Shown here piece after piece: positions 6,001-63,938 of a DNA stretch of 64,000 nucleotides. The notes beneath the pieces were generated by a model that had not been told where the DNA came from, made no database searches, and saw nothing but the letters and a program-made list of their open reading frames with translations. Source of the stretch: Lingula anatina (lineage: Eukaryota > Animalia > Brachiopoda); assembly GCA_051362555.1 (NCBI GenBank), contig CM120641.1:6882001-6946000 (forward strand), given 5' to 3'. The first letter of the stretch is position 1, and every line of letters begins with the position of its first letter. Both the position numbers and the translations under genes were made by a program.

Positions 6001-9000
6001 ACACAAGTTATTGAAATAATCAGGTACCATAATACTTGCTCATGCTTATATATATATATATGCTTATATATATAAAGTTAACAGTGCTGAATATAAAACA
6101 AAAAACGTGCACACAATATGCTTCAGAGAGAGAGAGAGAGACAGACGGAGACAGATGGAGGGAGGCAGGTAGACAGGCTTGGGTCCTGGCATATAACTAA
6201 TTATACAGTTAACCTAACCAATGCATACTTACTCATGAACATCTGGTTGCTGTATCATTCTTTCCACACTGAAACAATATGTATTGTGCAATAAATGTAC
6301 CCAGATGATGAAAATGACATTCATGATTGTCAGTGTCTTGTTTCTTTACACAAATATGAAGACAACTTTAACACAAAATTATCAAACTTTTTTTAACAAC
6401 CTGACACTTTTTGCTGTCAAACTGCTTATAAATAAATCATATTCACACCTTTTTTTGCAATATGTTTTGCAAAACAGTGTTACTTGTAAAAATAAGATCC
6501 TTACCTTTCTTTAATGATAAAGAAGGACCCTAGTTGTGCCAACATTGTACTTGAGAACACAGCTAACACCTCAAAACGCTCATATCTGAAACACATAATA
6601 CAGTCATTCATTTTTCTTTTACTGAAATTCTGCATCCTGACATGCTCTCTCAAACGTTTTCTTCCTATATCCTCTGTGCTGTTCCTTATACTAAATTACA
6701 AATTTGATCCAAAAATCACATTTCATAAAATAACATGGGCAACTGACCTATGATCCTGGTAAATTTGGAATTCAAAGAACGCTTTACCTAGCATTAAGTA
6801 CCAGCTAACATATTTTCATTATAGCTTAATTCCCTTCTACTCTACATGTTGCATCTGAGGAAAACAAAGGCACTGAGCCAGTTACAGCTTTGCTAAACAG
6901 ACCCAGAGTGATAAAGACTGGTCCACAGGAGAGCATATATACATACCCAAAGGAAAAAACAGAAGATGGACCCTGTTTCTGAACCCAAAGGGTTATCAGT
7001 GCGGTCAGCAACCTAAAAATGAACAATCCCATCATAAAATTGGTTCCTAATATTGTCAACATACAACTGTATTGATACAATATACAATGCAAAACAACAA
7101 CATGAAACAGTAGACTATGGCTGTGATACAACATGCTTAGTTTTTTTTGTTTCAGGATCAGGACATGTTGCACTTTAAATATCTGTATCCTTTCAGCAAA
7201 ATCACTCTTCTATATCCACACTTACCTCAGCAAATCAAATATTGCCAGATATGAGTAAGCTGTCAGTGCTGAAAAAGACAGTATGAAATTGAAATATGAA
7301 TTTTAGCAAGAGGCCTTTAACAGTATTTATTGTGATTTGGGAAATGTTAGAGATGAAATGTCAAAGAGAAAATTCCAATGCATTATTTTCACTGATACTT
7401 TGGGCACAATTACTAGTGCATCCTGTTTTATTCATATATTCTAGAACTCAAAGTAACATTCATTTCAGCTCTAAAGTTTTATTTATAAGTAAATGTTTTT
7501 TTCCTAATCTAAAAAGCTATTCTTACCCATGCTGTTTGTTGAGTGACACCAAAGAAGTAAAATGAAAACACAAACAATATTAACTGCTGCATAGGCAATG
7601 ATCCTCCTTGCCTGAAATAAATCAAATAATTCTTTTATTATAACTGCACTGGACCCTTCAGGATTCTTCTGGTATATACCAGTTAATCTTGAAATACTTT
7701 TGTTACATCACATATACATGTGTGCATTATTATATTTGGTAAGCCAGTATTACATGTACAACCATGCTGAGATTGCCACACTTTATTTATCACTATTAAG
7801 CTATACTGTTATTAACCAACCTTGGGCTCTGCCATAAGAAAATCCATTTCCTTGGCAACCATTTTCAAAAATGAATTTCTACTGCTGTTGTGAGGTCCAA
7901 ATGGATGAATAGTTCCCTAAGACATAACCAGAGGAATGATAAAAATAGTTTCTAACATTTCATCAGAATTTTGTATACTTCATCAGAATTGCTATGTAAT
8001 GAATTAAACATGAATTATTTGTCTTACCAAATCATTTATGAAATATTGCATTTCAGATATATACAGACTTGAAAATAAAGATTTAAATGTCAGTTTTAAA
8101 ACAAAATGATTCAAACAAAATATTGTTACACTGCTAATTATTTTGAAAACATTTTATTACACAGCTTTAACAATAACTTTCTTCTCTCCATGTACCCCCT
8201 TTTCTCTATTTTATATGAATTTTTAAAATACTGCAGTGCTGAGAACATGAACATATTAATGTGGACTTCATTTTACTTCTGGGTAGACATGGAAAGGGTT
8301 GAGTCACCTTTCCTTTTTCTTTTCAGGGGAAACTAGCTCCACTGATATGCATTGTTGCTTTCTTTTAAATTCTACAACAATTTATAGATTAGGCCACACT
8401 TTTTTATTTTTATGGATGACATCCTCTGGGTACCCCAAAATCGGTGCGAGAGGGCGAAAAAAAAAAAAAAAAAAAACAGTCCAAAAAAAAAAAAAACTGC
8501 TTAAGTAAAGGAATGCTGTCAGTACACAGCTGGAAACACAAATTTAACCACATAAACACGTATCAAACTAACAATATGTCTTTATCCATGCTCTCAAAAT
8601 ATTAAAGCATTGTCAATACTTCGTAGAAATGTAAAAAAAAAGTCATGAATTGATATACTTCATATTACCAAATCTATTTAAGGTTATTTCATGCATTCAT
8701 TTGGTATAGCAATCAATAAAACAAATATCAATCAAACAGTGCGTCTTTATTTGTATTCTCAGAATATTAAAACATTTTGAACACTTCACAGAAATGTTTA
8801 AAAAATGATGCAAAGATATGCTTAATACTACCAAATCTATTAAAGGTCATTTCAGACGATGCCATTTTGTCAACTTCAACTCACACGAAGCAGCTAAACT
8901 GTCAGGTGGCCTGTCCGACCTTCAGCCACCAAATACCTCGACGCCCTTGTCGACCCTTTTTTCACTACAGAAAACCTGGTATTAATGTGCTGCTTTATAC

Positions 9001-9504
9001 AGAATGTCACAGAAATGTTTCGGCCGCCTCCAGCCTTTCGCACAATTGTAAAAAGGTGATATCTCCATGCCCAATATCAATGGCATACCAATCCAAAACG
9101 ATGGCGCCCGTTCTCTTGATGACTTTTATTGTTGTGTAATTTGAAAGTAATCCTAGAGATGAATTTGACAGCAAAGTGGCCGCATTTCCACGTGGCGAAA
9201 ATACGCATGCGCAGAAAGCTCATTTCCTTAACAACGTTTGCGACAACCGACTTCGTTGGGGGCTGGGGGGGGGGGGGGGGGCTTTTTTTTTTTTTTTTTT
9301 TTTTTTGGAGAACGGGCGAAAATCCGTGCGCGCGCAGGATGTCATCCATAAAATTAAAAAAGTGTGGCCTTACATTCAAAGCTGAATCTAATTATAAGTC
9401 AGAGCAAATTCCTAGAGATTAAAACACCATATAGAAAGTTGACAGTTTGTACCACTCACCAGGGCAACACTACCACCCAAACCAGCAGTGTGTTTTCCAT
9501 TCAT
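27..9504 (-). CDS. SLC30A6: Zinc transporter 6 (ZnT6, CDF family), 5' part; 3' exons lie beyond the left edge
   Basis: GT-AG bounded coding exons 9460-9504 (MNGKHTAGLGGSVAL), 7821-7916 (GTIHPF...), 7527-7611 (LLWCHSTNSM), 7226-7268 (ALTAYSYLAIFDL), 6947-7012, 6505-6585 (YERFEVLAVFSSTMLAQLG), 6233-6268, 5827-5970 (SWLQEHVAD), 1030-1149, 403-505 (TFGTMFPMAVYSGMILLQ), 27-143 (TTPTYVIGQLDK...NEHFWTL). Phases are consistent and the peptides match remembered vertebrate ZnT6. Confidence 0.95.
545..996. mobile_element. Degenerate MITE in an SLC30A6 intron
   Basis: Imperfect terminal inverted repeats ctgggtccagtttcac ... gtgaaactgaccacag; no clear TSD. Confidence 0.4.
1769..1953 (+). mobile_element. 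Short non-autonomous Helentron-type element (HINE-like)
   Basis: Starts AACTAGAAAAGCACTCCGAGAGTGC (short palindrome), has a subterminal inverted repeat ACCTCTGCCAAGG / CCTTGGCAGAGGT, and sits in an A/T context without a TSD. Confidence 0.6.
2590..2927. mobile_element. MITE with TTAA TSD (Kolobok-like), copy 1
   Basis: TIR AGGGATAATAACTCTTCGT at both ends, flanked by TTAA (2586-2589, 2928-2931); internal palindrome tgttaaaatctcttaagagattttaaca; near-identical inverted copy at 49558-49887. Confidence 0.85.
3300..5610 (+). repeat. Degenerate tandem repeat array ending in a Helentron/HINE-like 3' end
   Basis: Recurrent motif (tttcg)aacttgacctgcgtattatgaatattcatcagtt at about 5078, 5263 and 5424, with more diverged copies upstream. 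It is followed by a GACGGC microsatellite (5521-5557), a hairpin tatgtacagacaca-tc-tgtgtctgtacata (5576-5605) and an A-run. The left boundary is uncertain. Confidence 0.6.
8392..9369. mobile_element. PIF/Harbinger-like non-autonomous DNA transposon, copy 1
   Basis: TIR GGCCACACTTTTT(T/A)ATTTTATGGATGACATCCT, TTA on both flanks (8389-8391, 9370-9372); second copy inverted at 60253-61318. Confidence 0.85.
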
Positions 9505-11776: not shown

Positions 11777-11958
11777 GGGGGCCGTAGCGATAGTCCGAAG
11801 GTTCAATAGTCCGAAGGTTCATTGGTCCGAATGTTCACTATAGAACCTTCGGACCAATGAACCCTTGATTAAAAAAGTCGATGAAAATGTTAGGCCTACC
11901 ACTTTTCGGACCAATGAACCTTCGGACCAATGAACCTTCGGACTATCGAGACGCCCCC
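11777..11958. mobile_element. About 180-bp palindromic MITE with 15-bp subterminal repeats, copy 1
   Basis: GG...CC termini, repeated (a/g)gtccgaaggttca(a/t)t units inverted at the two ends, TSD tgccgttt (11769-11776 / 11959-11966). Confidence 0.85.
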
Positions 11959-12445
11959 TGCCGTTTGTACAGTATTTCAAAGAAACAACATTTCGTCGCA
12001 CCAGTTTCTAAAAGTTTGGTATATTCTCTAAAAAGATGTATTTACTAAACATTTTTAATAATCAAATCTTGATATCAGCAATAAAGCACCACAAAATCAT
12101 TAATTTGTTTGCAAAAGCTTTAAGGCGATGTTAAGATGTTATTTAACAGTGTAGTAGTTTTTCCTGTCTTGAGTTCAGATCGTGATTTTGACAGATTGAT
12201 TTTCGACAGATATTCACAGATATGTCTCTAGATAAATAGACAGTCATTTTGGTCTGATGTCAACAAATTTTGTAATTTTGACATAAACTGGATCCAAACA
12301 GGCGCAAGTAAGATATGGAGATAAGGAGCTATGGACTAGCACTGCCTTTATTAGGGACAATAAGCAGAGGAAGGTGCACACCGACCTATTAATTTTGTAA
12401 TTGAAAATAGTAATGACGAAGGCCACAAATCCATATAGTCGGGAG

Positions 12446-12619
12446 GAGGGCGTCTCGATAGTCCGAAGGTTCATTGGTCCGAAGGTTCATTGGTCCGAAA
12501 AGTGGTAACATTTTCATCGATTTTTTAATCATGGGTTCATTGGTCTGAAGTTTCTATAGTGAACATTCGGACCAATGAACCTTCGGACTATTGAACCTTC
12601 GGACTATCGCTACGGCCCC
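12446..12619. mobile_element. Same MITE family, copy 2 in opposite orientation
   Basis: Reverse complement of 11777-11958 with few changes; it has its own TSD gtcgggag on both flanks. Confidence 0.85.
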
Positions 12620-14218
12620 GTCGGGAGCTCTATTTCACCTCAATAGTATGGCGATTTATTTTTATTTTATCAACTTGACGCTTAGGCCCAATTTACGTTA
12701 GCACCCACTTACAAATTATCAAGTTTATAGGCCTTTGTTAATATAAAGGAAGCAGTACTTCGGCTATCTTTATATACAGGCAGTGTTAATGTATGTTTAT
12801 ATTCTGTTTGTGTCTGTCCCTGTCGTCATGCTTGTTCACCCCCAAACCGTATCATTTACTTAAAATCTTATTTGGCAAGAAGGCAGATTGAGTCAAATAT
12901 TTTTCAAAACCTGCCCATGAAGATGACGAAAATGTGGTTATTCAATACCATAGTTACAATATCAACCATGGCTGATTACAGATTTTAGAGGTGAATTGTA
13001 GAAAGGCAAAACGTTCAGCCAGCGATAATATATCTTGATCTTTTTTCTTTTTCACGGACAGGTTACAGGCCTGGGGTCGTATCCTGGAAAGGATGTAACT
13101 TACAAATTCTTGTAACTTTTTAAGAGTAACAAATATTTTGAAGAAAATTGTGTGTCCAAAATTACAAACGCGCGTAAATTGCTACAAACTGTTGTAAGTT
13201 ACAAACATTCGATCAGGCGCGTCTTATAATGAGTACCAACATAACACCAAGTTTTGCTGTCTAGAGATCAGTGTAGTGTCCTCTTAAGTACCGACTACTA
13301 ACCCCTACATTTATTTGTATCTTTTTATACCTTCACGTATACAATAGCATTGGCTTTCCAGCCAGGTGGGTTGCCAGAGTGGTCACTTTAATTCAATTAC
13401 ACATATGATAGAGAAGACTTCCAGACTAAGTACTAAATGACTTTTACTAGCAGACAATAGGTTGTAATTAACTAATTGTAACTCTCTTAGCTCCTTTGTT
13501 CTCAGCATGCCACATGATTTGAACTTTACTTGTTCCAATCACTTTGGTAATACCCCTAGTAATATCTATCATCTCCAGTTTATGCAGCAAAGGCTCAAAA
13601 CTATTGTTTTACCATTTTGCATTTGGCTGGAGTTAAACACCCAATGTTAACCTCATTTTTATTAATCCCTCAATAAGCCAAGATATACACAGATATACAA
13701 GCCCTATACATACACATGTGCCAGTGTTCGTTCAATACATGTACGCCTACATTTTTTACAGAACATTTTTCAGACGTCATGATATCAAAATATACCTGTA
13801 CAAAAAATGAAGTGTTAAACAGAGTGGTGAACTATCTGAAATGGTCCCCTGAAAGAAAAAATGGAGAAGGATGAAAATAACAAGAAACTAACTGAACTAC
13901 TGTTTTAACCTTCTGGTGAATATTGTTATGTTATTACAGCTCACACTTGAAAATTGGCCTCATCTGAAACCACTTTCTGTAAAAGCCATATGCTCTTATT
14001 ATTTTTTTTACCAAGCATTTAACTGTATAAATCCATGATAATTAACACAATGGAACCAGTTTTACATAATATTGTGTATCTTACAGGAGCATTTCAAAGA
14101 AACAGCCCAAGTTGAAATATGGTCTGTATTGCACCAATTTTACCAAAGTTATCCTGTTGTCATACATATACAATGTATGTTTCTGCAATTTGAATTTGTG
14201 TGCATAATATGAGATCAC

Positions 14219-14863
14219 ATGAGAAGCAGAATTATCAAAGCGATAGATTTTTATACTTTAAAAATTATGTCCCTTATTTCTGACAACCATAACATGGCAC
14301 AAACTTTAGGAAAAGATGTAAAAATTATCGAAAATGAAATTCACTTTACATCACTAGCTCTGGCCAAACTTTTTCACCAATCTACACTTGCAACAAAACT
14401 TTCCAATGAAATTCACAAATTTCAACTAGGATTTAATGATCTCTTGTTAGGCAAACTGTCACCTCTTCTTGTTCCCCCTCATGATCTGAACAACATTCTC
14501 AACAACAATCAAAACAAGTTATCAAACACCACCTTAAAATTGCATATCCAAATATACAGCATGTCTATTCTACATCACACCCAACAGTTAGCAAACACAG
14601 AAACAAGATTTTGATCACCCTGCCAATTCCACTGACTCCCTTTGTCCAACCATTTACTGTTTATTCTGCAAAATCATTTCCAGTCCCCGTCATCAACAGC
14701 ACAACTCAAAGTACACATTTTTAAAATTGACATACCACAATACTTTGCTACAAACAAGCCAGATCAAACTTTTTACATAGACAGTTTAGACCTGCAATCA
14801 TGCATGCACCAATGCTCTCACTTTTGCCATCTTCCATACCTAAACATTTTTCTTGCCTATTGA
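14219..14863 (+). pseudogene. Decayed env-like ORF of a Gypsy-type LTR retrotransposon
   Basis: Helical segment followed by LLLGKLSPLLVPPHDLNNIL, then a frameshifted ILITLPIPL strand and a Cys-containing region, resembling invertebrate Gypsy env proteins. Confidence 0.55.
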
Positions 14864-24279: not shown

Positions 24280-25830
24280 CATGTTAAGAATTGAGAGCCC
24301 TGCAAAAGAGAGATATTTCAAGTAAATTATGGTAATGTTACATTTAAAAGAGGACATAGGCGGAAGGGCGGAAGAGGGCAGTCAAATAGTCTGTTTGGAG
24401 TAGCAACAAACGAACAGCTTAATAAGGTAATAGAGCATGTCAAATCTTTGCAAACTAGGCAACAGAAAGCTCTGCCTTTTCTAAATTCAGTTCCAGGGTG
24501 ACGACAAAATCAGGAACTTTGTGGCGTAAATTATAAGAATAGGGAGGAAGGTTAAATTACCTGATCAGCATATAATGACAGCAATATTAAATGGGATACA
24601 ACCCTCAGTTTGGGCAACAGTAATGATGCAAAGGCCAAGTAGTCTTACATATTTAGAAGCAGTATCAGAGTATATAAACCCCTCTGAATCTTGACATTAA
24701 CAGTAGATGTAGTAGACTCAAGAGGAGGTCAGATCTGTGGCAATAAAGGTCTCTCCAGTTACTCTCTGTGTTTTTCATTTGAAGAATATACCTAGAGAAG
24801 TTAGACCCTCATACTGGTGGAGAACCTGAGCAAAAATATGCGCAGAGTATCCCCCAGATCAGCAATGGCCACATAGAGAGAGGGAGAGACCAGCCAGCCA
24901 GCAGTACCTCCTCAGCAGCGTGTAGAGGCAACTACACTTAACACCAGTACTGAACAACAGCAACAACTGCAAATGGCACCTCCACTGTGAGTAGAGCCAG
25001 CAGATGAACCAATCCCCCCTTCGGCACAGCAGGCGGAACTACTACATCTCAGACTTGTATAAAGCAAAAAAGGAACTAATGTTGGAACATCTCAATATGG
25101 TAAATAAAGAATGGTACAACGAGAATACACCAGTGTTTTCTCTTTTTGATAAAGATACCCTTATTTACTGCATAAAACTCCCCCTTGTCAACAAAGAAAC
25201 ATATTTTCTTTATAATGTTAGGACATTTAAATCCCCGCACACGAAACCAGGTTATAGCGCAAAATTGGCATTACCAGCTTCAAAAATTGGGTTGCATCCT
25301 AAAACTGGTGATATTTTCAATCCCACACAATGTCTTGGTAAAAATCCAATAGCATGTAACTCGGGGACCAATATTTAGAACTGGACAGATTTGTGAAAGA
25401 GCTTATAAGAGATCCCAAACACAGAAATTTGTGTGTTGTTGAAATTACTCAAAGGACTCAAGTTATAGTTTGGACACAGAAATTGACTCTGGAAAATTCT
25501 TCATCAAGACATGGGGAGAAAGATTGTAAACTAGATGTATAAAATCACCAGAAACTTTAATACAAATCACCTTTGGCACATATCTAATTGATGTAGAAAA
25601 TGGGTGTTCTGTCCATGGAAACAATTTTATTTTGCCAGGCATAATACGAAAAATTGGGAAAATTTCGTTAAAACCCATACAATTACATTTTACAGAATCT
25701 TTTAATATTCATGCTGTTATAGTTGAAACAAAAGCAATAAAATTATTAGAAAATTTGGAGGCAAAAAATTTTAAAATGTCAGCAAAGACAAATTTAGCTC
25801 CTTTGGCTGACACAGAAGGATCAAACTAGG
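24280..25830 (+). pseudogene. Gypsy-type env and gag-like fragments
   Basis: LFGVATNEQLNKVIEHV fusion-peptide-like piece (about 24390-24440), a gag-like piece (24490-24800), and an env-like IKLPLV...LYNVRTF...CLGKNPIAC region with frameshifts (25040-25830). Confidence 0.5.
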
Positions 25831-30263: not shown

Positions 30264-32874
30264 CTAAATGGTACACTCCTGTTCATAATAATGTGGAATG
30301 ACTTCATGACTATCTCTAAGAGTATACTTGCTCCAAACTGCATACTGTAGAACACCTAGTGTAAGTGGAATTAAACACAGCAGGTAGAACATGCTGCTCT
30401 GGAGTTGGTCTATTCCGGAATGTAGTTTGCCAAGCTTGTATTCCGCATACCCATTCCTATTGAGTATGGCCACTGCTAACATTGGGGCAAGAGATATGGC
30501 AGGCTTGATCACAAGAGCATTTGTACCATAGACCATGGAAGATATTGGGTGCCTGGAATGGATAGCAAGGACATTTTACCATGTGAATGGACAGTGTGGA
30601 GATGAAACTTATGTCTAGGAAGAATATTGTAGACATAACATTTAAGTCCAGGGTGTAATAAAATCTTATCTGTGCCACAACCACAAAAGGAATAAGCTAG
30701 GCCAGCCTTCAAGTTACTTACTCTCGATTATACAGTTTGGAGTCTTCATCCACAATATCTGACATAGGCATGTTCATCAAGGAGGATGTGGCACTGGTTA
30801 CACTACTGCAAGGCAAACAAAACACAAATGTGAAATAATAATCTCCAAGTTTTCTGTGTTTTAATTTTTGAATTAATTTCATACTTGTTTAATAGTATGA
30901 TCTTCTTTACTGACATTCAAGATATGTCTGTGCTAAAAATGAAATGTTTTTTTAGTACTGATGTCATTTTTTTCGATATGTAGTGCCAGGGGCAGGTAGA
31001 ACCGGCCGGATAGCTCAGTTGGTAGAGCACTCGCCCTGTTAGCGAGAGGTCCCAGGTTCCATTCCTGGTCTGGTCGGTGATTTTTCTGCACTCACCCCAA
31101 ATCGCTACAATGGTGGCAGCGGTGTTGCGAGATAGGGCTCGCGTCTTTCGGCACTTGGGGGGGAGGAGTGTAATGCCAGGGGCAGGTAGAACCGGCCGGA
31201 TAGCTCAGTTGGTAGAGCACTCGCCCTGTTAGCGAGAGGTCCCGGGTTCGATTCCTGGTCTGGTCGGTGATTTTTCTGCACTCACCCCAAATCGCTACAG
31301 ATATATAAGCTACCACTTATGCATAGAAGTATTATGCTTCTGAATATTTTTTAAATAAGCCAAGCTGAAATGAATGTCTAAAAGTACATACCTGTCTGTT
31401 ATGAGGAAAACCATCAGTAGATAGAGGTGGTCTTTGCCCCAAAACAACATGAAAAGAGATGAAAATATTTTCACCACAAAAGAGCTCCTGAAAATTTGAT
31501 ATGAACCAAACCTGGCCACCAAAGGAGATCCCAATAGCACCAGCATCTGAAATAGTGATTAATACTAGTGTTATAGAAAATGCCACTTTTAGGAAAATTA
31601 AGTTTCACTGAGGTGATCATAATTAAGTGAACTCACATCTACTAGTAAATTTCCCTTTTTTTATCATTTACATTTTTGCTTCTTTTTTTAAATAAATCTT
31701 ATACAAAAAAAGAAATCAAATATATATACTGTAGAAGGAAAATACTGTTGAAATATAAATATTTCTAATAGCTAGCAAAAAGATTTTTCAGAAATCTCAT
31801 ATATAACATACAGAAAATGGATTTTTACTAGGAATAGCATAACTTTGATTTAGAGAAATAAAGTTTATATTCGACCAATTTATATCACTTTTTTTTGGGG
31901 GGGGGGTCAAATTTTTTACATACCTACTTAAAAAATGCTTCAGTAACTATAGTGAAAAGAAAAACTCAAAATAGTATAAAGCTTACCATAGGTATCACAG
32001 TCACAAATCCATAGAAAACACTTCTGTAAACACTGGGCAATATTTCCTGTGGTACCATCATATCAGTGATAATGGCAGTAAAGTTCAACAAAAATGTTCT
32101 GTGTAATACTTGACAAAAGTTCATTAAAACAAAACAGATAAAGTTCCTCTGTCTCAGCAGTTGCCATGTCAGCTGCAACATGGAATACTTAGAAGATCTT
32201 GCAGCCTGATCTGTTCTGTTCTGACTGTCAAGAGAATTAGGTTTCAAGTCATATTCTGTATCTGCATAAATTCCAGTATAAGACATACACAGGAAGGCTA
32301 TCATAGCAATTAACATAGTATAACACTGAAATTCTCCTATTTTCTTCAAATTATCAGAAAACAAATTTGCGAAGAAAACACTGCCTGAACCAGCAAATGC
32401 TGCTAACTGTGCATACTTGATCAGTCTCAGCCTGTCCTGGTGCTTGCCTGACATTTCTGTGAAAATACAACACTGAGCAAGCAGCACAAAAGTAAACATG
32501 GCATCATAAAAACATAGCGCTACCACCAGGTGGAGCCCACAAAGCCAGCTGGAAATTCCAGGCTGATAGTTCCCCCAGGGAAACCAGGGCACCAGGAATG
32601 AAAGTGCAAAGAAAGGTCCGCCATAGAGCACAGCGTGACGTCTCTTCCTCACACACGCCAAGTTTGAATTGTCTTGACAATACCCAAACAAAGGGTCATT
32701 GATGGCGTTCCATATCATGAAGATGACCTGTGCAACATTGAACCACTCTTCGGAAATGTGATACAAGTTGAGGAAGAACTTGACGTAGTAGAACATGAAG
32801 ACCTCATTCATCATAGTGGCTCCCACACTGGTGGTGGCATAGGCCACTGAGGGCCAGTGAATCCTAACCATCAT
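30264..32874 (-). CDS. MFSD13A: Major facilitator superfamily protein 13A (TMEM180)
   Basis: Exons 31987-32874, 31392-31546, 30722-30805 and 30264-30552 with GT-AG junctions in phase give about 471 aa. Motifs include WNAINDPLFG, AVLYGGPFFALSFLVPWFPW and SSMVYGTNALVIKPAISLAPM. An acceptor at 32883 implies an upstream UTR exon. Confidence 0.93.
31004..31076 (+). pseudogene. tRNA-Thr(TGT)-like cassette in the 5' LTR
   Basis: Cloverleaf GGCCGGA/TCTGGTC, GCTC/GAGC, CTCGC-CCTGTTA-GCGAG; the T-loop is mutated to TTCCATT; non-canonical C33 and T37. Confidence 0.7.
31194..31266 (+). pseudogene. tRNA-Thr(TGT)-like cassette in the 3' LTR, with intact A and B boxes
   Basis: A box TAGCTCAGTTGG and B box GGTTCGATTCC, full cloverleaf, T5 run just downstream. 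The anticodon loop CCTGTTA lacks U33 and a purine at 37, so it is unlikely to be a translating tRNA. Confidence 0.75.
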
Positions 32875-34630
32875 TACAACTTCTGAAACAAAAATCATAA
32901 CATTATTGATTTATTGATTTAAACCATACCTGACATGGTATGATCAGCCTGTCAGCACAAAGTATTATTATTTTTTACTCTTAAATGTGACTGTATGACA
33001 GGATGAAAAAAGGATGCCATCCAGTGTAAGTTTAGACACAGTGCTTGGAGTTTTCAACTAAGTGCACTTTTCCAGCTAACAGGATTTGTTCTCAGTTATT
33101 CCAGGGCTGTTCATGCTTAGAACAGTTAACATGCCAGACAACCAGTGATTATTCCTGCTAAAGTTAATTTCTGTTTTCTGCCAACCATGACTAGTGTGGA
33201 CTTTCTCCATGATATCTACTAAAATATGTACAAAAATTCTAATCACACTGTAGGGCCCTGTGGGAATGGATCTACTTAGAACATCTGGAATAATGAGACT
33301 ACCATGCCTTTACGGGCTGAAATGCAAACAGTTGTCCATTAATATAACTAATCACCCTGATCACAGACTGTTCTATCTTATACAACCTAAACAAACCAGC
33401 AGATATTCCCTGGGAATTTAAATCTGAGTCACTTTAAAAGACAGAAAATCAAAATCAAACATCCAATGGGTGGTTCACAAATTATCATGTAGAAGCTTCA
33501 AGTTGACTGGCAAACTTTTTTTACTTTTTAATTATTTCATTTGTTTTAATTTATATAAAGGGATTGTATCCTGGTCTTTTATATCCAACAATACCCTTAT
33601 TTTTCTCAGTTACTAACTAGCAGCTATGTAGATACAGTGTTACAAACTCTTTATGTAGAAGTAGTTTCTACACAGCTGGAACAAAAAGACAAACTGGTGT
33701 TTGAACCAATACAAAAGGAATTTATAAAAGGAAATTATATATACTACCAAGACATGGGTATTTGTAGCCTTGGGACTTTGAAACAGAGTGGAATGAGGCC
33801 TTGCCTGCTTTAGGTACTTACTGTAGCTGAGACAAAGTCAGGGCTCATAAATATGATAATTGCATCAAGAGCCTTTGATTTGGGAGTGCAAATACCTGAA
33901 TTAATGACACTGTGCCGCAATTTAAGTACCCCAACTTAAAATTAATAGCCACAAGCATAGCGATGGACCACACTAATAATTGGTCTCAGGCCTTATTCAT
34001 ATATGACTACTTTCAATATGGCTGAAGATATGTGATATTTTTCCCCTTTCTACGTCTTTGGAGATTTTTGACATTTACGTCCAGGGACATTAAAGTGGTT
34101 AAAAATCTTTCATGTATTTATAGTTATCTTAAGAAAAATAAATGTACAGTATGTAAAAATTCTCAAAACAAACCAATCTTATGTATTTGTATATTCTACT
34201 GCCTGTAATGCATATTAATTAATACGGCAGCAATGCACTCTCAACAATATCCAGCACAATAATGAACATACTAAATGGGTAGAAAAGCAGATTTGCGGCT
34301 TGTGGACCATAGTTTCACATGGTACTTTGGGATTCTTAATTCATGGCTTGGGTCATTTATCTCGGCATTTGAATTCACAAACCTGAAGCTTGAGTTCGCA
34401 AACCCATTCAATTATCTGTTTGTAAGGCATGAGGGTGGCGCAATACAAACAGTTAAATAATATAAATAGAAATAGCATTCACTTCAAACTAGAAAGAGAT
34501 GTAAAAATCTCTTTAGTTTGATGCAAATGATCATTTTTACTTACAATGTGCTCAACGTCGGAGGGTATTTTCGTCTCCACTGCAACGAATTACGTGGCGC
34601 CTCGGAACCTCGATCCCAACACTTCCAATT

Positions 34631-34786: not shown

Positions 34787-35622
34787 AAAACACTACATGG
34801 AACATACGAATTAAACTTACACCTAAGAAAGGATATTTTACTGACCGACATCCAACTATAACAAGGCACCATAACACTACTAGCAATAATGACGCACAAT
34901 TACAATGAGAAATAAATAAATAATTATATAGGTTATATATCCAGCTACAGTAGTTTTTTTGTGTGTAGCATTTCGTTAACCCATACTATCCATCCATCCC
35001 GACTTTGCTAATGACACACAGGGATTATGTTAACTAGTGTTCTGGATAGTGAGCAACTTATCCCTAAGTTTTAAACAGCTACCTAAATATTGTACTACAA
35101 CATATATAATGTCCATCTCAACAGACCCCATTAGAAAGTTGAATATTTCTTTTTCACTAAACCCTTCAAATGATACAAAAGACTCTAGCTTAGTACTCAT
35201 TTGGTTCCGCTGCTCTGTATATACTGGGCATTCCCTAACTAGATGAAATTCATCTTCTATTCTCTGAAGATCGCACAATTTACATAACCTCTGCTCCAGC
35301 GGTGTCTTAGGTCGGGTAAATCTCCCCCGCTCCACCTGTAGGGTATGTGCACTTAATCTTATTTTACAGAAGGTGGCTCTTAGACTCTTATTCATAATAG
35401 TAGTGTAATTCTCACATGAGAATCTGTTTTTGAAGCCTACATATGTTCTAAGTTTTTTACTACTATCTACTGCCTTTATCATCCCTTCCCATTCCTCACT
35501 GTAGGCCTGCTTCATGTGTTGGTTTACTATGGCCTGTGTGTTGCTGTTGGATATTTTAATGGGATTAGCCCATAATTCCTCGGCATGGCCTACTACATGT
35601 AAGAGTGCCGCACATAATTCGA
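34631..35622 (-). mobile_element. 5'-truncated non-LTR retrotransposon (LINE; L2/CR1/RTE-X-like ORF2 C-terminus)
   Basis: ORF 35030-35515 with KLRTY...RLSAHTLQVERGR...RLCKLC...IEDEFHLVRECPVY; 3' UTR with AATAAA near 34647-34652; 10-bp TSD acttccaatt at 34621-34630 and 35623-35632. Confidence 0.85.
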
Positions 35623-35632
35623 ACTTCCAATT

Positions 35633-36111
35633 TCGTCAAATTGTATTTTTCTGCCCTTGAGGTATTTTACTAAGGGGTGGTAAGCCAAGCACAAAGCCTT
35701 CCATTTCCACCACGTGCAAAAAATAAAGCCACACACAGGGGGCAATAACACTGCTAACGGCTCAATTGTTTAAAGAAAAGTGATGCATACTCGACTGATC
35801 TGCAAGGAGCATGTCGAATGAATTACGGATCTCCAATCATAGAGAGCGGCTTAATCAAAAGAGTGAAAAATATTATTTGAAAATCGAATGGTACCTGTAA
35901 TTTTGTAAAATAAAATATTTAACATATTTTGTATACAATCTGAAATTGATGTAACATTTCATATATTATATATATATATTTCCCATCAGGCAAAATAAAC
36001 CGGAAGCATATGTCAAAGCAACTTCCGATTAATAGGACTCGTGTTTTCGAGAAAGTTCACCGTTATTATTTGCCCAAGCCTTAGTATTTTTGTTTCATTT
36101 TTTGGAATATC
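35633..36111. promoter_or_regulatory. Probable divergent promoter region between MFSD13A and AHSA1
   Basis: Head-to-head gene layout; ETS-like CCGGAAG at about 36000 and ACTTCCG at 36021; E-box CACGTG at 35711; candidate MFSD13A UTR-exon donor (minus GTAAGT) at about 34544. Confidence 0.45.
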
Positions 36112-37455: not shown

Positions 37456-38906
37456 AAGACCGTACAATATATATACAGTAACTACTGAGTACAGTAGGAG
37501 AACAAAATTAATTTTGCAAAAACATTTCTCAAAAATCACAAGGAAGAGCTGTAGACCTACGTACTGTCAAGCTGCACACAAAGTCTGAGATTGACTTCGT
37601 GTAATGTTCTTTATTTTTCCCAATATATTTCGAATAAAATTAGTCAATTCTGTGTCCCAAGAGGGTGATGCATCTTGAAAAAAAAAAGCATAGAAAGTGT
37701 TGTAAATTACGAATGGGGTTTACAAAGCCAAGGGAATCTATGCCTTGGGGGAGTAGTGTTTTTGCGGAGTATCGGTACGCGGGAGCATCAGTGCGGGGGA
37801 GTATCGGTGCGGGGATGTAAAGAAGCGGGGGAGTATCGGTGCGAGGGAGTATCGGTGCGGGGATGTAAAGAAGCGGGGAGTATCGGTGCGGGGATGTAAA
37901 GAAGTGGGGGAGTATCGGTGCGGGGGAGTATAGGTACGTAACCGGATTCCATAATCTTATTATAGCTGAATAGCAATATGTGTGTGTGTGCGTGTGTGTG
38001 TGCGTGTGCGTGTGTGCATGTAGGCGTGCCCACATGTATGTGTATGTGTTTGTGCATGTTACTTATTTCTTTGATATAGTGAGTTGCATTTTTTCACTTT
38101 ATTTCAGGACAGAGAAAAATGCTTCCAACTGGTCTAAAGACAAAATTAAAAACCTCTTGACAGGTTTAAAAGTTGAATGTGATGATGGTAAGGAAACTCT
38201 GCTTAAAGTTATTTTTAAAATTTTCATAAACAAGAAAGTAGTATAATGGTTTCATAATAGTTTGACATAAAGTTTACCAAAGACCATGTAGTTTTTCCAT
38301 CTTTGGCTACATTTTTTCTGTAAAACTGTAGAATTAGTTTCTTTACTACTGTGCATTTTTTCTAATTAGGCTGGTGTGAAATAAAAGAGGTGACCAAGGT
38401 TGAAGGGGAGGCTTCAGCAAGTAACAGAAAAGCAAAACTAATCTTTTTTTATGAATGGGAAGTGGAGGCTGATTGGACAGGTTTGTACTTTGAATGATTT
38501 TGTGTCACCAGCTAATAAAACTGAGTCCACACAAAAAGTTATTTTGGCTAAGCTTAGGTGACTATTCTTGGCTAGCCACCAAACCAAAGTTGAATTTACC
38601 TTAAAATTGGTGTAATAGCATATCAAAGACAATAAGGCCATGATAAATGGAGTTCGTATACCTAAATGGGCTTTGGTCACCAGTGAGAGATAAAAGCAAT
38701 GTGCAGACAATCACAGTGAGGGAAAACCAGACATAACTGACAAAATTAATGAGTGTTGACTGTCTGTATATGGCATTGTGGGACAAATTTCATTTTTGTT
38801 TTTTAAACATTATGTTTAGGGAAGAATCTATTTTAGCAGATGCATCTTTTTTTTTTCATTAGAAAGGGGAAGAAATGTCAAATCCACAGTATGGGCAATT
38901 TTTTTT

Positions 38907-38949
<43 letters not shown>

Positions 38950-41282
38950 AAACACTACTTAGCTGAAATTTTAGCAGTTTTCACAAACTTTAAGATATTT
39001 TCTTGTATTGCAAGGACATTTGGTGTCATGCCTTTCCAAGTAATATGAATTACAGTAAGTTGATAGAAATGTTTTTTTTTATTATTGTAGGACAATTGGA
39101 TGACAGTAAAACTAAATATAAAGGGACCCTAAAAATACCTAACCTGAGCGAGGAGAATGATCCAAGTGACATTGATGTGAGTTCCTTTTATTGATTATTG
39201 CATGGCAGGTTTTTACATTTAATTGTAGGTATTGACATTTTTTTTCTTCTGAGAAATGTGAAGGAATCGCTGTTAAGGTTGGAGATGGATTCTATTATTA
39301 TTGAGTGAAGTTTATGCTTTTTGTCATATATCCATACAGATTAATTATTTCCAGCCATATATTAGTACTTTTGTTTAACTTCCACTTTCTTTACCTCCAA
39401 CATTGATGCAAATGATATTTAAACAGGTTATAGTGACAGTTAAAAATGAATCTGATGAAGCATTTAAAGTGAAAGAAATCCTTAGGAAGAAGGGGACTCC
39501 CATGATACAGGAGCAAATAGCCAAATATATTAAGGATTTAAAAGTGGGTAAGTAATACTACAAAATTAAGACAAAAATAGATTTAAAAAAAATATATATC
39601 AAAAGATTGAGTAATAGTGCAGAACAAGGAAGTAAGCTGTTGTTATTTTGAATTTAATTTTTTTTTATCAATAGCTATTGATATTAGTATTGTTTGTATA
39701 GCTATTGGGTAATAACAAAGTAAATGCATTATGTAGACTACGAAATGAAAAAAGAAAATGTAAAGGAAAACCAAAACATTGCTGATGATATGGACCTGTA
39801 TATTCTAGAGTTCAGTCAAGGAATGATCCTTCCTGCTAAGGGTGCAGTTGAAAAACCTAGAGTGCCAAGTCCTGTAAGTGTATATGTAAACTTGACCATT
39901 TTTGCTTTACTTCAAAAAAAAGTGCAACTGCTGTGTTTTTGTGTAGAAGTTTTGTATGCAACTATGAATGTATTCTTGGTAATGTCTGAATTCTTTTTCA
40001 CACTTTCATATCTCCTTTCCTAATTTTGTAAAATATGGTTGAATAAATCTGTAGGTTTATAAGATGCTAATCACTAGGAACTGAAGTTTGAAATGTAAAT
40101 TTTTTAAAACACTTTTTAAAGGCTACAACAAATCTTGCCAAGCAAGAACTCTCCAAGCCGATAATGGGCGACTCCGCAAAACCAGTGGGTGTTAAGATTC
40201 ACACAAAGAAACTTACAGACAAACAAAAATTTAAGTGCAGAGCAAGTGATTTGTATAGAGCTTTGACAGAAAAAGAGGTACGTGTTGTTTGAAATCTCAT
40301 CACATTATCATGTTACACATAATGCAAGAAACCAACTGTTAATGTTGAAATTGAACAAAAGAGAAATCTGACATTTGTATATACATACTTGTTTTTATCT
40401 AAATCATTGTAGTCTTGATTAAAGACGTTTAAATGTTAGTGTTAATAGAGTTACCTTTTTTGCATTTAAGGAGGATGATGATAATTGTAGTGGTTTGAAA
40501 ACTATTTGGAAGAATTTTGATTTCTTTTTACTTCAGATGGTTCAAGCTTTCACCAGGAATTCTATGTTAGCATTTGAAGCAGAAAAAGGTGGAGGTTTTG
40601 TCTTGTTTGATGGATATATCTCTGGAACATTTACAGACTTGGTAAATATGCCACATCTCTTCACATTTATATAATAATATCAAAAACTTTCAAAATGAGA
40701 GGAAAATGAAACACCATAGTTGTGTTTTAATTGAAATGACTATTTCATTACTTTAAATAATGGGTTAATTAAAAAAAAAACTAACCCACAGCTGTCAACA
40801 TTTCACATCTTGTTGCATCTTCTGTGGTTTTATGCTCCATCCAGTTGGGTGTGGTAGCTGTGGAAATGTTTCATGTCTGATCATCACAACTTTTTAAATA
40901 GGTAATATGATAATAGAGTGAGTGAAGGCCTCTATATTCCGAACACTGGTGGTAGCTCCCAGTCAAGTTTTCTTGATATTGCGAGTACGTGTGGGAGCAT
41001 GTGGTTGTGTTATATATTATATTTATTAATATCTGTAAAATGTTCTTCTCTTTGCAGACTCCACACGAGAGGATAGAGATGCGATGGCGCTGTCAGAACT
41101 GGCCAGATGAACATTACTCTAATGTAACTTTTGAATTTAAAGAAGGGGAGGACGAGACTGTCCTTCATATTACACAGACTGGTATTCCTTCCACGGAGTT
41201 TGAACGCACTAAAGAAGGTTGGGAGAGATATTACTGGGAAAGCATACGACAGACATTTGGTTTTGGTGTCAGGCTAATATGA
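36112..41282 (+). CDS. AHSA1: Activator of Hsp90 ATPase (Aha1)
   Basis: Exons 36112-36191 (MAKWGEGDPRWIVEERADATNVNNWHW), 38108-38187, 38370-38480 (NRKAKLIFFYEW), 39091-39176 (IPNLSEEND), 39427-39547, 39809-39873, 40122-40277, 40537-40641 and 41058-41282 (GWERYYWESIRQTFGFG). Total 1029 nt, 342 aa, all GT-AG. Confidence 0.97.
36450..37943. mobile_element. Foldback-like non-autonomous DNA transposon with 16-bp subterminal tandem repeats, in AHSA1 intron 1
   Basis: Left arrays of tactcccccgcaccg(a/t) (36460-36710) mirrored by cggtgcgggggagtat arrays (37745-37930); GG...CC termini; 8-bp TSD ggattcca (36442-36449 / 37944-37951). Confidence 0.85.
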
Positions 41283-53157: not shown

Positions 53158-56100
53158 GAGTCTACATGCTTGATGCAAATCATAAATCAATTTTCTTTGT
53201 TTTTAACAATGATTCTTTTATTAACTATATGATAAAACGTCTATGTATTATGGGAATTCGTTTTTTTTTTATTACATGAAAAATGAAATAATTATGTTTT
53301 TCAGTACAAGATTGTTGTAAATCACTGGCAGTATACTCACAGCTGTGTACTGAGCTGGATATGGGGTGATATTTTTGAAAGCCCACTGTATGTTCTGGTG
53401 CTGGGCAAGCTGCCTTGTGAAGTTACGGGACACGTGGCAGCACATCCTTAATATCCCATAGTAAGCAGGCAGCATACATCTGTTGAATATGACAACCTCT
53501 TGGTCATCATGGTCTGCACTGAAATAGGAAGACAAAGATGTATGAATACAGTTGAAGACAGATATCTTTTAATTCCATAACCTTTATCTAACTGGTAATA
53601 TCTTTCCTCCTGTGCAATGCCTATTCAAAACCCTTCAATAATATATTTAGGTGTTATCACTGTCAATAATATAAGTAACAGTTGGGCTCCACATTTTCAG
53701 AACATAAATGCACAAAATAATATGATTAAATATCCTCAATACAATCTTACAGTATTATTTAATTAAAGTCACATATTCACTTATTATAAATGCCATGTGT
53801 AAACAATCCTGGAGAGAGTTAATTACATGTAAAGTAGTTTTGGGCACTTTTTAAAATCAGTATCACTTATTTCTATGTGCCATGCAAAATCTTACTGACC
53901 AACAACATTTATAATACATCAACCATTCAACTTACAATACAATATCACTAACAGTACAGTATATCACTAACAGTACAGTATCAGTATCATTTACAGTACA
54001 ACAACAATGCAACTTATAGTGCACTTTCATTTGGAGTACAATGTCAATAACAGTACAACATCAATATCACTTACAGTATATAGTTAAATGCAATGTTCTT
54101 GGTGACATGAGGGTTGGAGGTGATGAGTCGTATGTTCTCCTGGGTCTCGTTACACACCTGGTACCAAAACAACAGCAAGGCCTGCTTGTTGTGGTTAACT
54201 GCTATAGGGGGCTCTGACAGCTTGGGCTGGAAAAGCTGCCACAGGTCCAGGAAGAAAGGGGAAAACTGGAATATAAACAAGCGGGTGTAAATAATTCAGA
54301 GCATACTGTAAAGCTTCTTTGATTTGTCTGTAGCTGCAATTTTAAGCTTTTTTTCTCTGCTGTACTGGTCAAATCTTTGACTTTGTATTTAAACTGGTAC
54401 ATAGTCTTTTCTTCTGAGCAGTGCTGTGTTGCTTTTACAAATTCAACTGTTATGTGGATTACTTGCCTCATTCCCATGTGTAGACACCATGCAGTAGAAA
54501 ATGTTATCTTCCCATGAGTTTCTCCTGTTTAGACACCAGGTAGTAGAATATGATATCTTACCATGAGTTTCTCCTGTTTAGGCACCAGGCAGTACAATAT
54601 GATATCTTACCAAGAGTTTCTCCTGTTTAGACACCAGGCAGTACAATATGATATCTTACCATGAGTTTCTCCTGTTTAGACACCAGGCAGTACAATATGA
54701 TATCTTACCAAGAGTTTCTCCTGTTTAGGCACCAGGATATAGAATATGATATCTTACCATGAGTTTCTCCTGTTTAGACACCAGGCAGTAGAATGTGATA
54801 TCTTACCATGAGTTTCTCCTGTTTAGGCACCAGGCAGTAGAATATGATATCTTACCATGAGTTTCTCCTGTTTAGGCACCAGGCAGTAGAATATGATATC
54901 TTACCATGAGTTTCTCCTGTTTAGACACCAGGCAGTAGAATGTGATATCTTACCATGAGTTTCTCCTGTTTAGGCACCAGGATATAGAATATGATATCTT
55001 ACCATGAGTTTCTCCTGTTAAGACACCAGGCAGTAGAATGTGATATCTTACCATGAGTTTCTCCTGTTTAGACACCAGGCAGTACAATATGATATCTTAC
55101 CATGAGTTTCTCCTGTTAAGACACCAGGCAGTAGAATATGATATCTTACCATGAGTTTCTCCTGTTAAGACACCAGGCAGTAGAATATGATATCTTACCA
55201 TGAGTTTCTCCTGTTAAGACACCAGGCAGTACAATATGATATCTTACCATGAGTTTCTCCTGTTTAGACACCAGGCAGTAGGTCATGAGAGCAAAATAAG
55301 ACATCAGCTGTGTGGTACTGTAGGTTGTGGCATCTGCATGGAAATAAAGATAATATCACTCAAAAATCATCACTCTGATTAACAAAAAATATTTAAAAAA
55401 CTCAATATTACACAAAAAGTTCGAGATAATTTGGTTCATAAATGGCAGCCCTGGCAATGTGTCTGCGACTAATACATATGCTTTCATTTTACAGACTAGA
55501 GTACTGAACATAACTGGGTATATGTACAGAAAAACTGTATATTATGCACCAATAAGCAGAAGTTGTAAACGTCTTAGGTATTATAAGCTTGTAACCATCA
55601 AGGTTAATGGTATTCTTCAGATTGATGCCTAAGTCATGAGTGTGGTCATGTCACTCTCACACGCACATGCATAATAGCATGCCAGCAATTATTTCCTCAC
55701 CGACATAATGCTTGGCTTTGCTCAACAGTCTCAGGAGCTCCATGTATATCTGGTGCAGCACAGCCAGAGCCTCGTGACCCATCTACAACATATACATATT
55801 ATATCATGCAACACATGTTTTGTAATAAGTGTTTGTATCCCACATGAAAACTTTTCTTTTCCCAAATTCACACAAGAAAAGTGAAAATTGTTTGCAAGCA
55901 ATATGATATTGATTTTTCATCTTTACTTATTAATTAATTTATTTATTTATTCATTTTACATTTATCGGGTTATAATATGATTAAATTGTTATTTCAACTT
56001 ACAGAGATCTCCTTGTGTGGACTGAGGATACTCCTGGCAGATCTGTAGGCCTGTCTGAAGTGAGGGCTGGGGACCAGAGACACCAACAGCAGGGCAGCAG

Positions 56101-62600: not shown

Positions 62601-63938
62601 CTATTGTGGAATTAAATGTGTGAAAGTTATGTCATCAAAATTTTTATCACCTCAGCTTAAAGGTAATTCACTAGGTTCACCACTATATGGCACATCAAAT
62701 TTTAGCTCAACTATTCTGATTTGTGTACTATTTTACTTTTTTGCCAATTTTGTTACCAACTATGGGAAAAAATTAAATTATCCAGATATTATATCTGACT
62801 CAAGTGGGATCAAATCTAAAGCCTCAACCTCCTCACCATCTATCCTGACCATTATCAGACTGGTGGACCCTGTCCCTGATAAAGCTGTAGTAATGACCTC
62901 CGTCTGCTGTCCCAGTATGGACAGTCACTCCAATCAGTTCATAGTCATAACCTTCCCTCTCCGCCTCTGTGTCACTGTCTGTTTCTTCCTCCACCTTGTC
63001 CTGGGGTTTCTTCTCCACATCTTCATCTGTAAATAATACAATATATTTATAGACTCCTTTGGTAAAAGTTCATAGTTTAAAAATGACCTCTCACCAAGTA
63101 TGACATATAATACTACTTTTAGCTCTAGCTGATCCCAACGAAGCATTTTCTTTCATACTCAAGGATTTTCTATTTACAAAAAATGCTTTGATTGGACCAT
63201 TTCTTCAAACTCAGGAAATTTCTATGAACTAATCTTTTCCTCTCTTGTCCTATTACGCATTTTTTTCACATTCAAATAAATTTCCAAGAAAAGGCTTCCT
63301 CTCTTTGGTCTCATGAAAATATCATCTTTTTAATTTCAGGGAATTCTCTAGGAATCTACCTTTTGCTCTCTCTGGTCCCATCAATGTCTTCTCCATGTAG
63401 GGTGACATGTCCAGTCTCAGTGGGAAGGAGAAGTGTGTGTTGACCTTCTCTTTCAACATGGTCACCATATTGAATGTATATCGCATGGTGTTGAAGCAAA
63501 GAATCTTGGGAAGTTTCTTGAAGCACGCCCTGAATAATAAATAAATAAATAATAATAATAATAATAATAAATAAGACAAGATAAAGTCGGTAAAGACTTC
63601 AGCAACTTAAAAATAAGATAAAGAAACAACATGAAATTCAATCTGTCATGTGTATCATTCTAGGGCACTACCTAACAAAGGAAGATTTCCTTTTTTGCTC
63701 TCCTATGCTAAATCAATTGTAATGTTTTTTATGTTTATCTATTACATCAATTTAAAAATTAGGCCTGAAGATACACCAAAAACAAAATTATGATACACAA
63801 GACATGAACTACAAAATCATTATCATAATATTAAATGGATACCTTTTTTCAGCCCTAACTTTTTTGCCACAGTTTGAGCAAGTATACATGTTGTCTCCCT
63901 CCAGTGTGTCCTTTACTGTCACCTCATCAAGGGACTCC
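43337..63938 (-). CDS. USP34: Ubiquitin carboxyl-terminal hydrolase 34, C-terminal half; 5' exons lie beyond the right edge
   Basis: 35 GT-AG exons: 63843-63938, 63360-63529, 62837-63026 (His box HTGTADGGHYYSFI), 62256-62334 (YLFNDAEV), 61946-61999, 61653-61769 (SAYMLFYER), 61396-61460, 59947-60073, 59743-59808, 59431-59511, 59140-59222, 58890-58962, 58505-58669, 58104-58286, 57607-57711, 57350-57394, 57059-57163, 56453-56600, 56003-56100, 55701-55782, 55248-55333, 54075-54265 (FQPKLSEP..NHNKQALL), 53341-53518, 52655-52812, 48854-48932, 48330-48456, 47990-48103, 47484-47588, 46728-46848, 46094-46217, 45697-45776, 45136-45273, 44668-44805, 44175-44436, 43337-43872 (stop TAA). Confidence 0.96.
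47763..47865 (-). pseudogene. Diverged intronic copy of the last about 110 nt of the USP34 CDS
   Basis: Aligns with 43336-43445 (NIECI...TDKVQ...EKD*), with substitutions and an 8-nt deletion. Confidence 0.8.
48960..52000. repeat. Nested repeat cluster in a USP34 intron (Helentron/HINE-like, with satellite core)
   Basis: Segments of 49068-49420 recur at 50270-50452 and 51820-51998. An element starting ACTAGAGG..agaggcgataccgcctct (50452) contains about three 146-bp tandem units (tgacttcctattcaagttc at 50935, 51081, 51227). Confidence 0.65.
49558..49887. mobile_element. TTAA-TSD MITE, copy 2, nested in the repeat cluster
   Basis: Inverted near-identical copy of 2590-2927 with TTAA flanks; it interrupts a motif that is intact at about 49215-49250. 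Confidence 0.85.
53090..53152. repeat. (TG)n(AG)n compound microsatellite
   Basis: Directly visible in the sequence. Confidence 0.95.
54473..55281 (-). repeat. 49-bp minisatellite (about 16 units) built from a USP34 exon 3' end and its splice donor
   Basis: Plus-strand unit catgagtttctcctgtttagacaccaggcagta(g/c)aatatgatatcttac; the terminal unit is part of exon 55248-55333. Confidence 0.95.
56603..56660. repeat. (TAA)n microsatellite abutting a USP34 splice acceptor
   Basis: About 19 AAT units immediately upstream (on the minus strand) of the acceptor at 56601-56602. Confidence 0.95.
60253..61318. mobile_element. PIF/Harbinger-like non-autonomous DNA transposon, copy 2
   Basis: Same TIRs as 8392-9369, TTA on both flanks, interior homologous in reverse orientation. 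Confidence 0.85.

What the first reader, a model, noticed from the sequence alone, without database searches (positions are those of the whole stretch)
30975..31303. Intact 321-bp LTR retrotransposon whose LTRs are built around a tRNA gene (Pol III-driven TRIM)
Seen: two 131-bp direct repeats with TG...CA ends, each holding a complete tRNA-Thr(TGT)-like cloverleaf with A/B boxes. The 59-bp interior has only a PBS (TGGTGGCAGCGGTG) and a PPT, and the element has a perfect GATA TSD. Established: the PBS is complementary to the 3' end of eukaryotic tRNA-Leu (…CACCGCTGCCACCA). Plant Cassandra TRIMs carry 5S sequence in their LTRs, and from memory tRNA-bearing TRIMs with 4-bp TSDs in animals have been described as Helenus, so the class is known but this family may not be. 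Inference: it is a SINE/LTR hybrid using a Pol III internal promoter and borrowing RT/integrase from a tRNA-Leu-primed Gypsy partner. The preserved stem pairing suggests selection on RNA structure, and only 3 LTR differences suggest a fairly recent insertion.
Basis: partly seen in the sequence, partly recalled or inferred. Interest (0 to 1): 0.8.

Follow-up and report, generated by a model that had tools for sequence, protein, structure and literature searches.

The report
Known Helenus-1 mini-retrotransposon copy in Lingula
This is a real 321-base jumping-gene remnant with a tRNA-like unit in each end, sitting in an intron of a brachiopod gene, and it is a near-exact copy of a family published in 2024 (Helenus-1_LAn), so it is ordinary rather than new.

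Summary
In detail: two 131-bp TG..CA LTRs with 3 differences, a 59-bp interior (PBS, PPT), GATA on both sides and a tRNA cloverleaf in each LTR. The family is already published: Helenus-1_LAn of Lingula anatina (Kojima 2024, PMC10886601; 323 bp, 4-bp TSD). The interior matches at 58 of 59 bases; both LTRs differ from it by the same 4 substitutions and 1 indel (compared by eye). The host exon is 98% identical to L. anatina TMEM180, and the element lies antisense in a spliced 586-nt intron. One of 4 DNA runs, a diverged lineage, has two contigs with the site empty; all 4 hold the element's sequence with other flanks. The cloverleaf has C33, U37 and G2-U71, so it is probably not a working tRNA. 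Pol III transcription and Gypsy mobilisation remain inferred. Small extras: 4 of the 5 shared differences match Helenus-3_LAn, and a T-run after each cloverleaf suggests a leaky-terminator life cycle. The scan has 119 notes matching the search words Helenus, TRIM, tRNA and LTR in at least 21 genomes.

The parts
30975..30978 (+). left target-site duplication GATA
30979..31109 (+). 5' LTR, 131 bp, TG..CA
31004..31076 (+). tRNA-like cloverleaf in the 5' LTR; A box about 31011-31022; anticodon TGT 31037-31039 with non-canonical C33 and U37; B box 31055-31065 with G>C at 31060
31081..31085 (+). T5 run, putative Pol III terminator that a full-length RNA would have to read through (inferred)
31111..31124 (+). 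primer-binding site, 14 nt complementary to the tRNA-Leu-AAG 3' end
31157..31168 (+). polypurine tract abutting the 3' LTR
31169..31299 (+). 3' LTR, 131 bp, TG..CA
31194..31266 (+). tRNA-like cloverleaf in the 3' LTR; B box 31245-31255 intact
31271..31275 (+). T5 run, putative 3' end of the element RNA (inferred)
31300..31303 (+). right target-site duplication GATA
30806..31391 (-). host intron (586 nt, GT..AG on the minus strand) of the TMEM180/MFSD13A-like gene; the element lies antisense within it

Best explanation
This is an intact, non-coding copy of the published Helenus-1_LAn mini LTR retrotransposon, inserted antisense in an intron of the Lingula TMEM180 gene, and it likely spread as a Pol III transcript copied by enzymes borrowed from a Gypsy element. 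Shown: the anatomy, the match to the published family, the intron position, other flanks at the LTR ends, and an empty site in one diverged run. Inferred mechanism: (1) the A and B boxes in the 5' LTR cloverleaf recruit Pol III, which starts near the cloverleaf's 5' end; (2) some polymerases read through the T5 at 31081-31085, cross PBS and PPT and stop at the second T5 (31271-31275), giving an RNA of about 270 nt whose repeated R region is the cloverleaf itself; (3) host tRNA-Leu primes reverse transcription, and the RT, RNase H and integrase of an autonomous tRNA-Leu-primed Gypsy element make and insert the cDNA with a 4-bp TSD. The cloverleaf is probably a promoter and not a decoding tRNA. 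This copy is probably a neutral passenger removed with the intron, and the B-box change in its 5' LTR may weaken its own promoter.
For: Anatomy. Family: a search of the paper's supplement with window motifs led to Helenus-1_LAn, listed as LTR 132, interior 59, full 323, TSD 4, Lingula anatina. By eye the interior matches 58 of 59, and both LTRs differ by 4 substitutions (31010, 31020, 31040, 31047) and one missing base (near 31023). Reads of other copies carry the published letters at these same places (tables 3-4: 31010 G, 31020 A, +A after 31023, 31040 A, 31047 G, 31154 T; 31010 G, 31154 T). Host: the neighbouring exon is 98% identical to L. anatina TMEM180, and the splice joint 30805/31392 is seen in X13 (3 reads), X16 (1 read) and an X9 contig. 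Mobility: in X2, X3 and X7 unrelated flanks begin at 30978-30979 and 31299-31301; X10 has 2 contigs that skip 348 and 350 nt across the element, with 42 letters on the shorter side; X7 record 26 bridges the left junction. PBS shared with Gypsy-57_CaAu and Gypsy-130_CGi in Fig. S2. Pol III read-through of T-runs is described as common in a human-cell preprint (10.1101/2025.10.17.683076, passages).
Against: No direct sign of Pol III transcription. The 4 runs gave few reads over the element (X13 about 2-19 depth, both strands), no shared start or end points, and several reads running into unrelated flanks, which fits copies embedded in mRNAs; the libraries are poly(A), oligo-dT or unspecified and would miss a short non-polyadenylated RNA. 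No autonomous partner was found, but only the window could be searched. The empty alleles in X10 do not show a clean single GATA and their flanks differ by about 3-10%. The X2 and X3 junction contigs overlap the LTR by only 28-29 nt, below the tool's 31-letter bridging rule. The match to the published consensus was made by eye, not by an alignment program.
Confidence: 0.93

Rival explanations
1. A distinct subfamily or recombinant: Helenus-1_LAn ends and interior around a tRNA core shared with Helenus-3_LAn, made by template switching between co-packaged RNAs or kept from their common ancestor. This refines the main reading and does not replace it.
For: The 5 differences from the Helenus-1_LAn LTR are present in both LTRs, so they pre-date insertion. 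4 of the 5 match the Helenus-3_LAn state (by eye), while the LTR ends and the interior follow Helenus-1.
Against: One copy only. No genome was held to count copies with this pattern. Contig depths are no copy number. A majority consensus hides such within-family variation, so this may be ordinary polymorphism.
Confidence: 0.4
2. The cloverleaf is released by RNase P/Z and works as a real tRNA-Thr(UGU), so the element spreads functional tRNA genes.
For: Full 7/4/5/5-bp cloverleaf, Rfam 58 bits, a T5 right behind it. The paper lists 7 bivalve families that could encode tRNA-Thr.
Against: C33 in place of the invariant U, U37 in place of a purine, G2-U71 and G73 (the tRNA rules are recalled knowledge). 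The Lingula families are not among those I saw in Fig. S1 (nearly all of the figure). The author concludes Helenus is unlikely to encode functional tRNA.
Confidence: 0.05
3. A tandem pair of host tRNA genes or a local duplication that only mimics an LTR element.
For: Two tRNA nt apart.
Against: PBS and PPT abut the repeats, TSD present, empty site in X10, other flanks exactly at the termini, published TE family.
Confidence: 0.01
4. The family is copied from Pol II read-through RNA of host genes and the tRNA-like unit is a passenger from an old SINE insertion.
For: Family reads in poly(A) RNA lie on both strands and run into unrelated flanks. A T5 in the 5' LTR would stop much Pol III transcription before the PBS.
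Against: The paper reports conservation of boxes A and B across families. The 25-nt U3 leaves little room for a Pol II promoter. An RNA with long host flanks gives no defined R region.
Confidence: 0.15

Closest known systems
Helenus-1_LAn, Lingula anatina (Kojima 2024, Biology 13:119, PMC10886601, Data S1 and Table S1)
   Same: Same host genus, 59-bp interior (58 of 59 identical), same LTR ends, PBS, PPT and 4-bp TSD; 321 vs 323 bp.
   Different: Both LTRs lack one base in the D loop and carry 4 shared substitutions; each LTR has 1-2 further private changes.
Helenus-3_LAn and Helenus-2_LAn (same paper)
   Same: Same tRNA-Leu-type PBS, size and TSD; Helenus-3 shares 4 of the 5 states that separate this copy from Helenus-1.
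   Different: Different LTR 5' and 3' segments and interior; Helenus-2 has a different tRNA core.
Cassandra (plants) and Ajax (nemerteans), 5S-derived TRIMs ('TRIMp3')
   Same: TRIM with a Pol III internal promoter in each LTR; Cassandra keeps a terminator in its LTR.
   Different: 5S-derived and not tRNA-derived; Ajax makes 5-bp TSDs; Cassandra is the only lineage with validated Pol III transcription according to the paper.

Membership tests
TRIM | Two short LTRs with TG..CA ends, under 1000 bp in all, no coding capacity | tested here: met
   131+59+131 bp; the one 95-codon stop-free frame across it has no Pfam match
TRIM | PBS next to the 5' LTR and PPT next to the 3' LTR | tested here: met
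   31111-31124 and 31157-31168
TRIM | Dispersed copies and an empty target site | tested here: met
   Other flanks at the termini in X2, X3, X7; 2 empty-site contigs in X10, 1 of 4 runs
Helenus | tRNA-derived sequence with A and B boxes in the LTR | tested here: met
   5' LTR B box has one change at 31060
Helenus (animal) | 4-bp TSD | tested here: met
   GATA/GATA; TSDs of other copies not tabulated because no genome was held
Helenus (animal) | PBS complementary to a tRNA 3' end and shared with Gypsy elements | tested here: met
   14 nt to tRNA-Leu-AAG as printed in Fig. S2, same PBS type as Gypsy-57_CaAu; the Lingula tRNA itself was not checked
Helenus-1_LAn | Sequence identity to the published consensus | tested here: met
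   By eye: interior 58 of 59; LTR 4 shared substitutions and 1 indel plus 1-2 private changes in 132; corroborated by read alleles
TRIMp3 | Transcription by RNA polymerase III | not testable with these tools
   Available RNA libraries are poly(A), oligo-dT or unspecified; no defined ends seen
Helenus (animal) | Mobilised in trans by an autonomous Gypsy element | not testable with these tools
   No genome held; no second PBS copy and no RT or integrase Pfam hit in 76 frames of the window
functional tRNA-Thr(UGU) | U33, purine 37, C2-G71 (recalled rules) | tested here: not met
   C33, U37, G2-U71 in both LTRs

The most novel reading that the evidence does not exclude
Helenus elements run on a tuned, leaky Pol III terminator. 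The same short T-run must be read through in the 5' LTR and obeyed in the 3' LTR, which makes the whole tRNA cloverleaf the R region. The U3 and U5 flanks pair to extend the acceptor stem (whole-LTR hairpin, z -2.96) and so would shield the genomic RNA from RNase P/Z. By eye, 26 of 26 fungal LTR records in supplement part 1 have a run of exactly four T behind the cloverleaf, and 22 of 24 and 9 of 11 records in parts 7 and 9 have 4-6 T. The paper's main text does not discuss a terminator for Helenus. This 321-bp element would be a minimal test system, and may also be a Helenus-1/Helenus-3 recombinant.
Probability: 0.3. Interest if true: 0.45.

Novelty: already known. Interest (0 to 1): 0.12.

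Why it matters
As a discovery it matters little: the class and this family in this species were published in 2024. It has practical value as a reminder that tRNA scanners call such LTRs as tRNA genes (both ARAGORN and Rfam did here), and as a presence/absence marker between Lingula lineages. The open question that touches it is whether Helenus is really Pol III-transcribed and how it passes its own terminator; this locus frames that test but does not answer it.

Tried and rejected
No genome was held, so copy number, TSD tables, solo LTRs and a Gypsy partner search could not be run. No second copy of the element, PBS or LTR end in the window. No RT or integrase Pfam hit among 76 stop-free frames of at least 85 aa (the 77th, the TMEM180 exon, was scanned). 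No RNA holder listed for the stretch. RNA lay: X16 12 reads, X13 90, X19 4 on the whole stretch, no common start or end points; reads over the element mostly carry other copies' letters, so nothing can be said about this copy's expression. X9, filed as DNA, gave spliced contigs and was no use as a genotype. X3 has no cover at 30910-30960, which proves nothing. Self-priming rejected: the mimic's 3' end plus CCA would pair with the PBS only over TGG (sequence), as the paper also found for Helenus in general. Folding energy of the cloverleaf alone and of the interior is not better than shuffles (z -1.75, -1.31, +1.57). No covariation test of the LTR hairpin across families was run. The original Cassandra paper (PMC2311327) is not held. 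A by-sequence look-up of earlier scan notes found nothing.

Full report
Observation. Two 131-nt direct repeats at 30979-31109 and 31169-31299 differ at 3 positions (2.3%, 95% interval 0.5-6.5%), begin TG and end CA, enclose 59 nt and are flanked by GATA on both sides. Each holds a cloverleaf that ARAGORN calls tRNA-Thr(tgt) and Rfam scores at 58 bits. The interior starts with a 14-nt PBS and ends in a 12-nt purine tract; a T5 run follows each cloverleaf. The element is 58% GC in a window of about 36%.

Identity. Kojima 2024 (PMC10886601) defines Helenus as TRIMs with tRNA-derived LTRs and 4-bp TSDs in animals. I read parts 1-5 of 6 of the text, the figure legends and tables, and parts 1, 7, 9 and 10 of 11 of the supplement, plus two supplement searches. 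Its Data S1 holds Helenus-1_LAn from Lingula anatina: LTR 132, interior 59, total 323, TSD 4. By eye the window's interior matches at 58 of 59 bases. Both window LTRs differ from the published LTR by the same four substitutions (5' LTR positions 31010, 31020, 31040, 31047) and one missing base near 31023, plus two private changes in the 5' LTR and one in the 3' LTR. Reads and contigs from other copies carry the published letters at these places, which supports the by-eye comparison. Four of the five shared differences equal the Helenus-3_LAn state, so this copy may be a minor subfamily, an older state or a recombinant; one copy cannot decide.

Host and position. The exon at 31966-32910 (minus strand) is 98% identical to L. 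anatina transmembrane protein 180, and that protein maps to four exons around the element. RNA shows splice joints at 30551/30721, 30805/31392 and 31546/31987, all CT..AC on the plus strand. The element therefore lies antisense in a 586-nt intron that is spliced out; the sequenced animals' genotype at the site is unknown, so an effect on splicing was not tested.

Mobility. In one search four DNA runs were laid. X2, X3 and X7 show unrelated flanks beginning at the LTR termini, as expected for dispersed copies. X7 has a contig bridging the left junction (43 nt flank, 71 nt LTR); X2 and X3 have flank contigs that enter the LTR by only 28-29 nt, below the tool's bridging rule; none of these three shows an empty site. 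X10, whose flanks differ from the window by about 3-10%, has two contigs that skip 348 and 350 nt and keep 20-22 letters resembling the left flank, with no LTR remnant. The target there is not a clean GATA, but the simplest reading is an empty site in a lineage that split before the insertion. This refutes a conserved tandem tRNA pair.

Mechanism. Shown: anatomy, family, dispersion, empty site. Inferred: Pol III starts at the 5' cloverleaf, some transcripts pass the first T5 and end at the second (about 270 nt), host tRNA-Leu primes at the PBS (14-nt complement to tRNA-Leu-AAG as printed in Fig. S2, a PBS type shared with Gypsy elements), and an autonomous Gypsy supplies RT and integrase. The paper also infers, and does not test, Pol III use and Gypsy dependence. 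The mimic is unlikely to decode: C33, U37, G2-U71 and G73 (rules recalled). It cannot prime its own PBS. RNA gave no support for Pol III transcripts: few reads, both strands, no defined ends, libraries unsuited to short non-polyadenylated RNA.

A side observation. A T-run behind the cloverleaf is general in the published LTRs I saw. By eye, 26 of 26 complete fungal records in part 1 have exactly four T (one cut record dropped), 22 of 24 animal records in part 7 have 4-6 T (in one the run is only at the far end; one headless record without a T4 dropped) and 9 of 11 records in part 9 do (one headless record with a T5 dropped). There is no shuffled control, and such a run could simply be inherited from the donor tRNA gene or SINE. 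In the paper's main text 'terminat' occurs only for Cassandra, and 'read-through' and 'RNase P' do not occur. My searches for a treatment of this point listed no other Helenus mechanism paper, though the library lacks most subscription journals. Cassandra keeps a terminator in its LTR and yields multi-unit read-through transcripts (PMC7215508 and PMC12486564, passages). A preprint reports frequent Pol III read-through in human cells, and says yeast needs about seven T for efficient stopping, but also finds four T optimal for release in human cells (10.1101/2025.10.17.683076, passages), which cuts against calling T4-T5 weak in animals. The whole 5' LTR folds as a long hairpin topped by the cloverleaf, with the acceptor stem extended (z -2.96, 1 of 200 shuffles); the cloverleaf alone does not beat shuffles. 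PMC12859917 (passages) only cites Helenus.

Verdict. Novelty: already known. Interest 0.12. The leaky-terminator and shielded-cloverleaf model is the boldest reading left open (probability 0.3, interest 0.45 if true); it concerns Helenus as a class more than this locus.

Noticed in passing
window 30267-32910 (-): TMEM180/MFSD13A-like MFS gene with four coding exons matched to the L. anatina protein; the RNA splice sites differ by 9-32 nt from the tblastn block edges.
   Followed up: yes
window 31301, run X2: A 6-nt insertion in the right TSD region in one contig of X2 that leaves GATA intact.
   Followed up: no
window 37974-38243 and 40977-41279 (+): Exon-like frames with Aha1_N (weak) and AHSA1 Pfam matches: probably the AHSA1 gene.
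   Followed up: no
window 58451-58774 and 63325-63606 (-): Frames with DUF3517 and UCH matches: probably exons of a large ubiquitin-specific protease gene.
   Followed up: no
window 8373-9370 and 60252-61338: Two inverted copies (84% over about 880 nt) of an interspersed repeat with terminal inverted matches, probably a non-autonomous DNA transposon.
   Followed up: no
window 11778-12619: Arms of about 186 nt in inverted orientation (94%) with internal palindromes, MITE- or foldback-like.
   Followed up: no
window 54471-55281: Tandem array with a period of about 49 nt, 92-94% alike.
   Followed up: no
window 35030-35635 (-): 201-codon stop-free frame that looks like the C-terminal zinc-knuckle end of a LINE ORF2 (recalled resemblance); no Pfam match.
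   Followed up: partly
window 14213-14614 and 24995-25378 (+): Two short frames that recall envelope-like ORFs of LTR elements (recalled resemblance); no Pfam match.
   Followed up: partly
run X10: Carries the same species label as the other runs but differs by about 3-10% in unique flanks, suggesting a diverged population or cryptic species.
   Followed up: no
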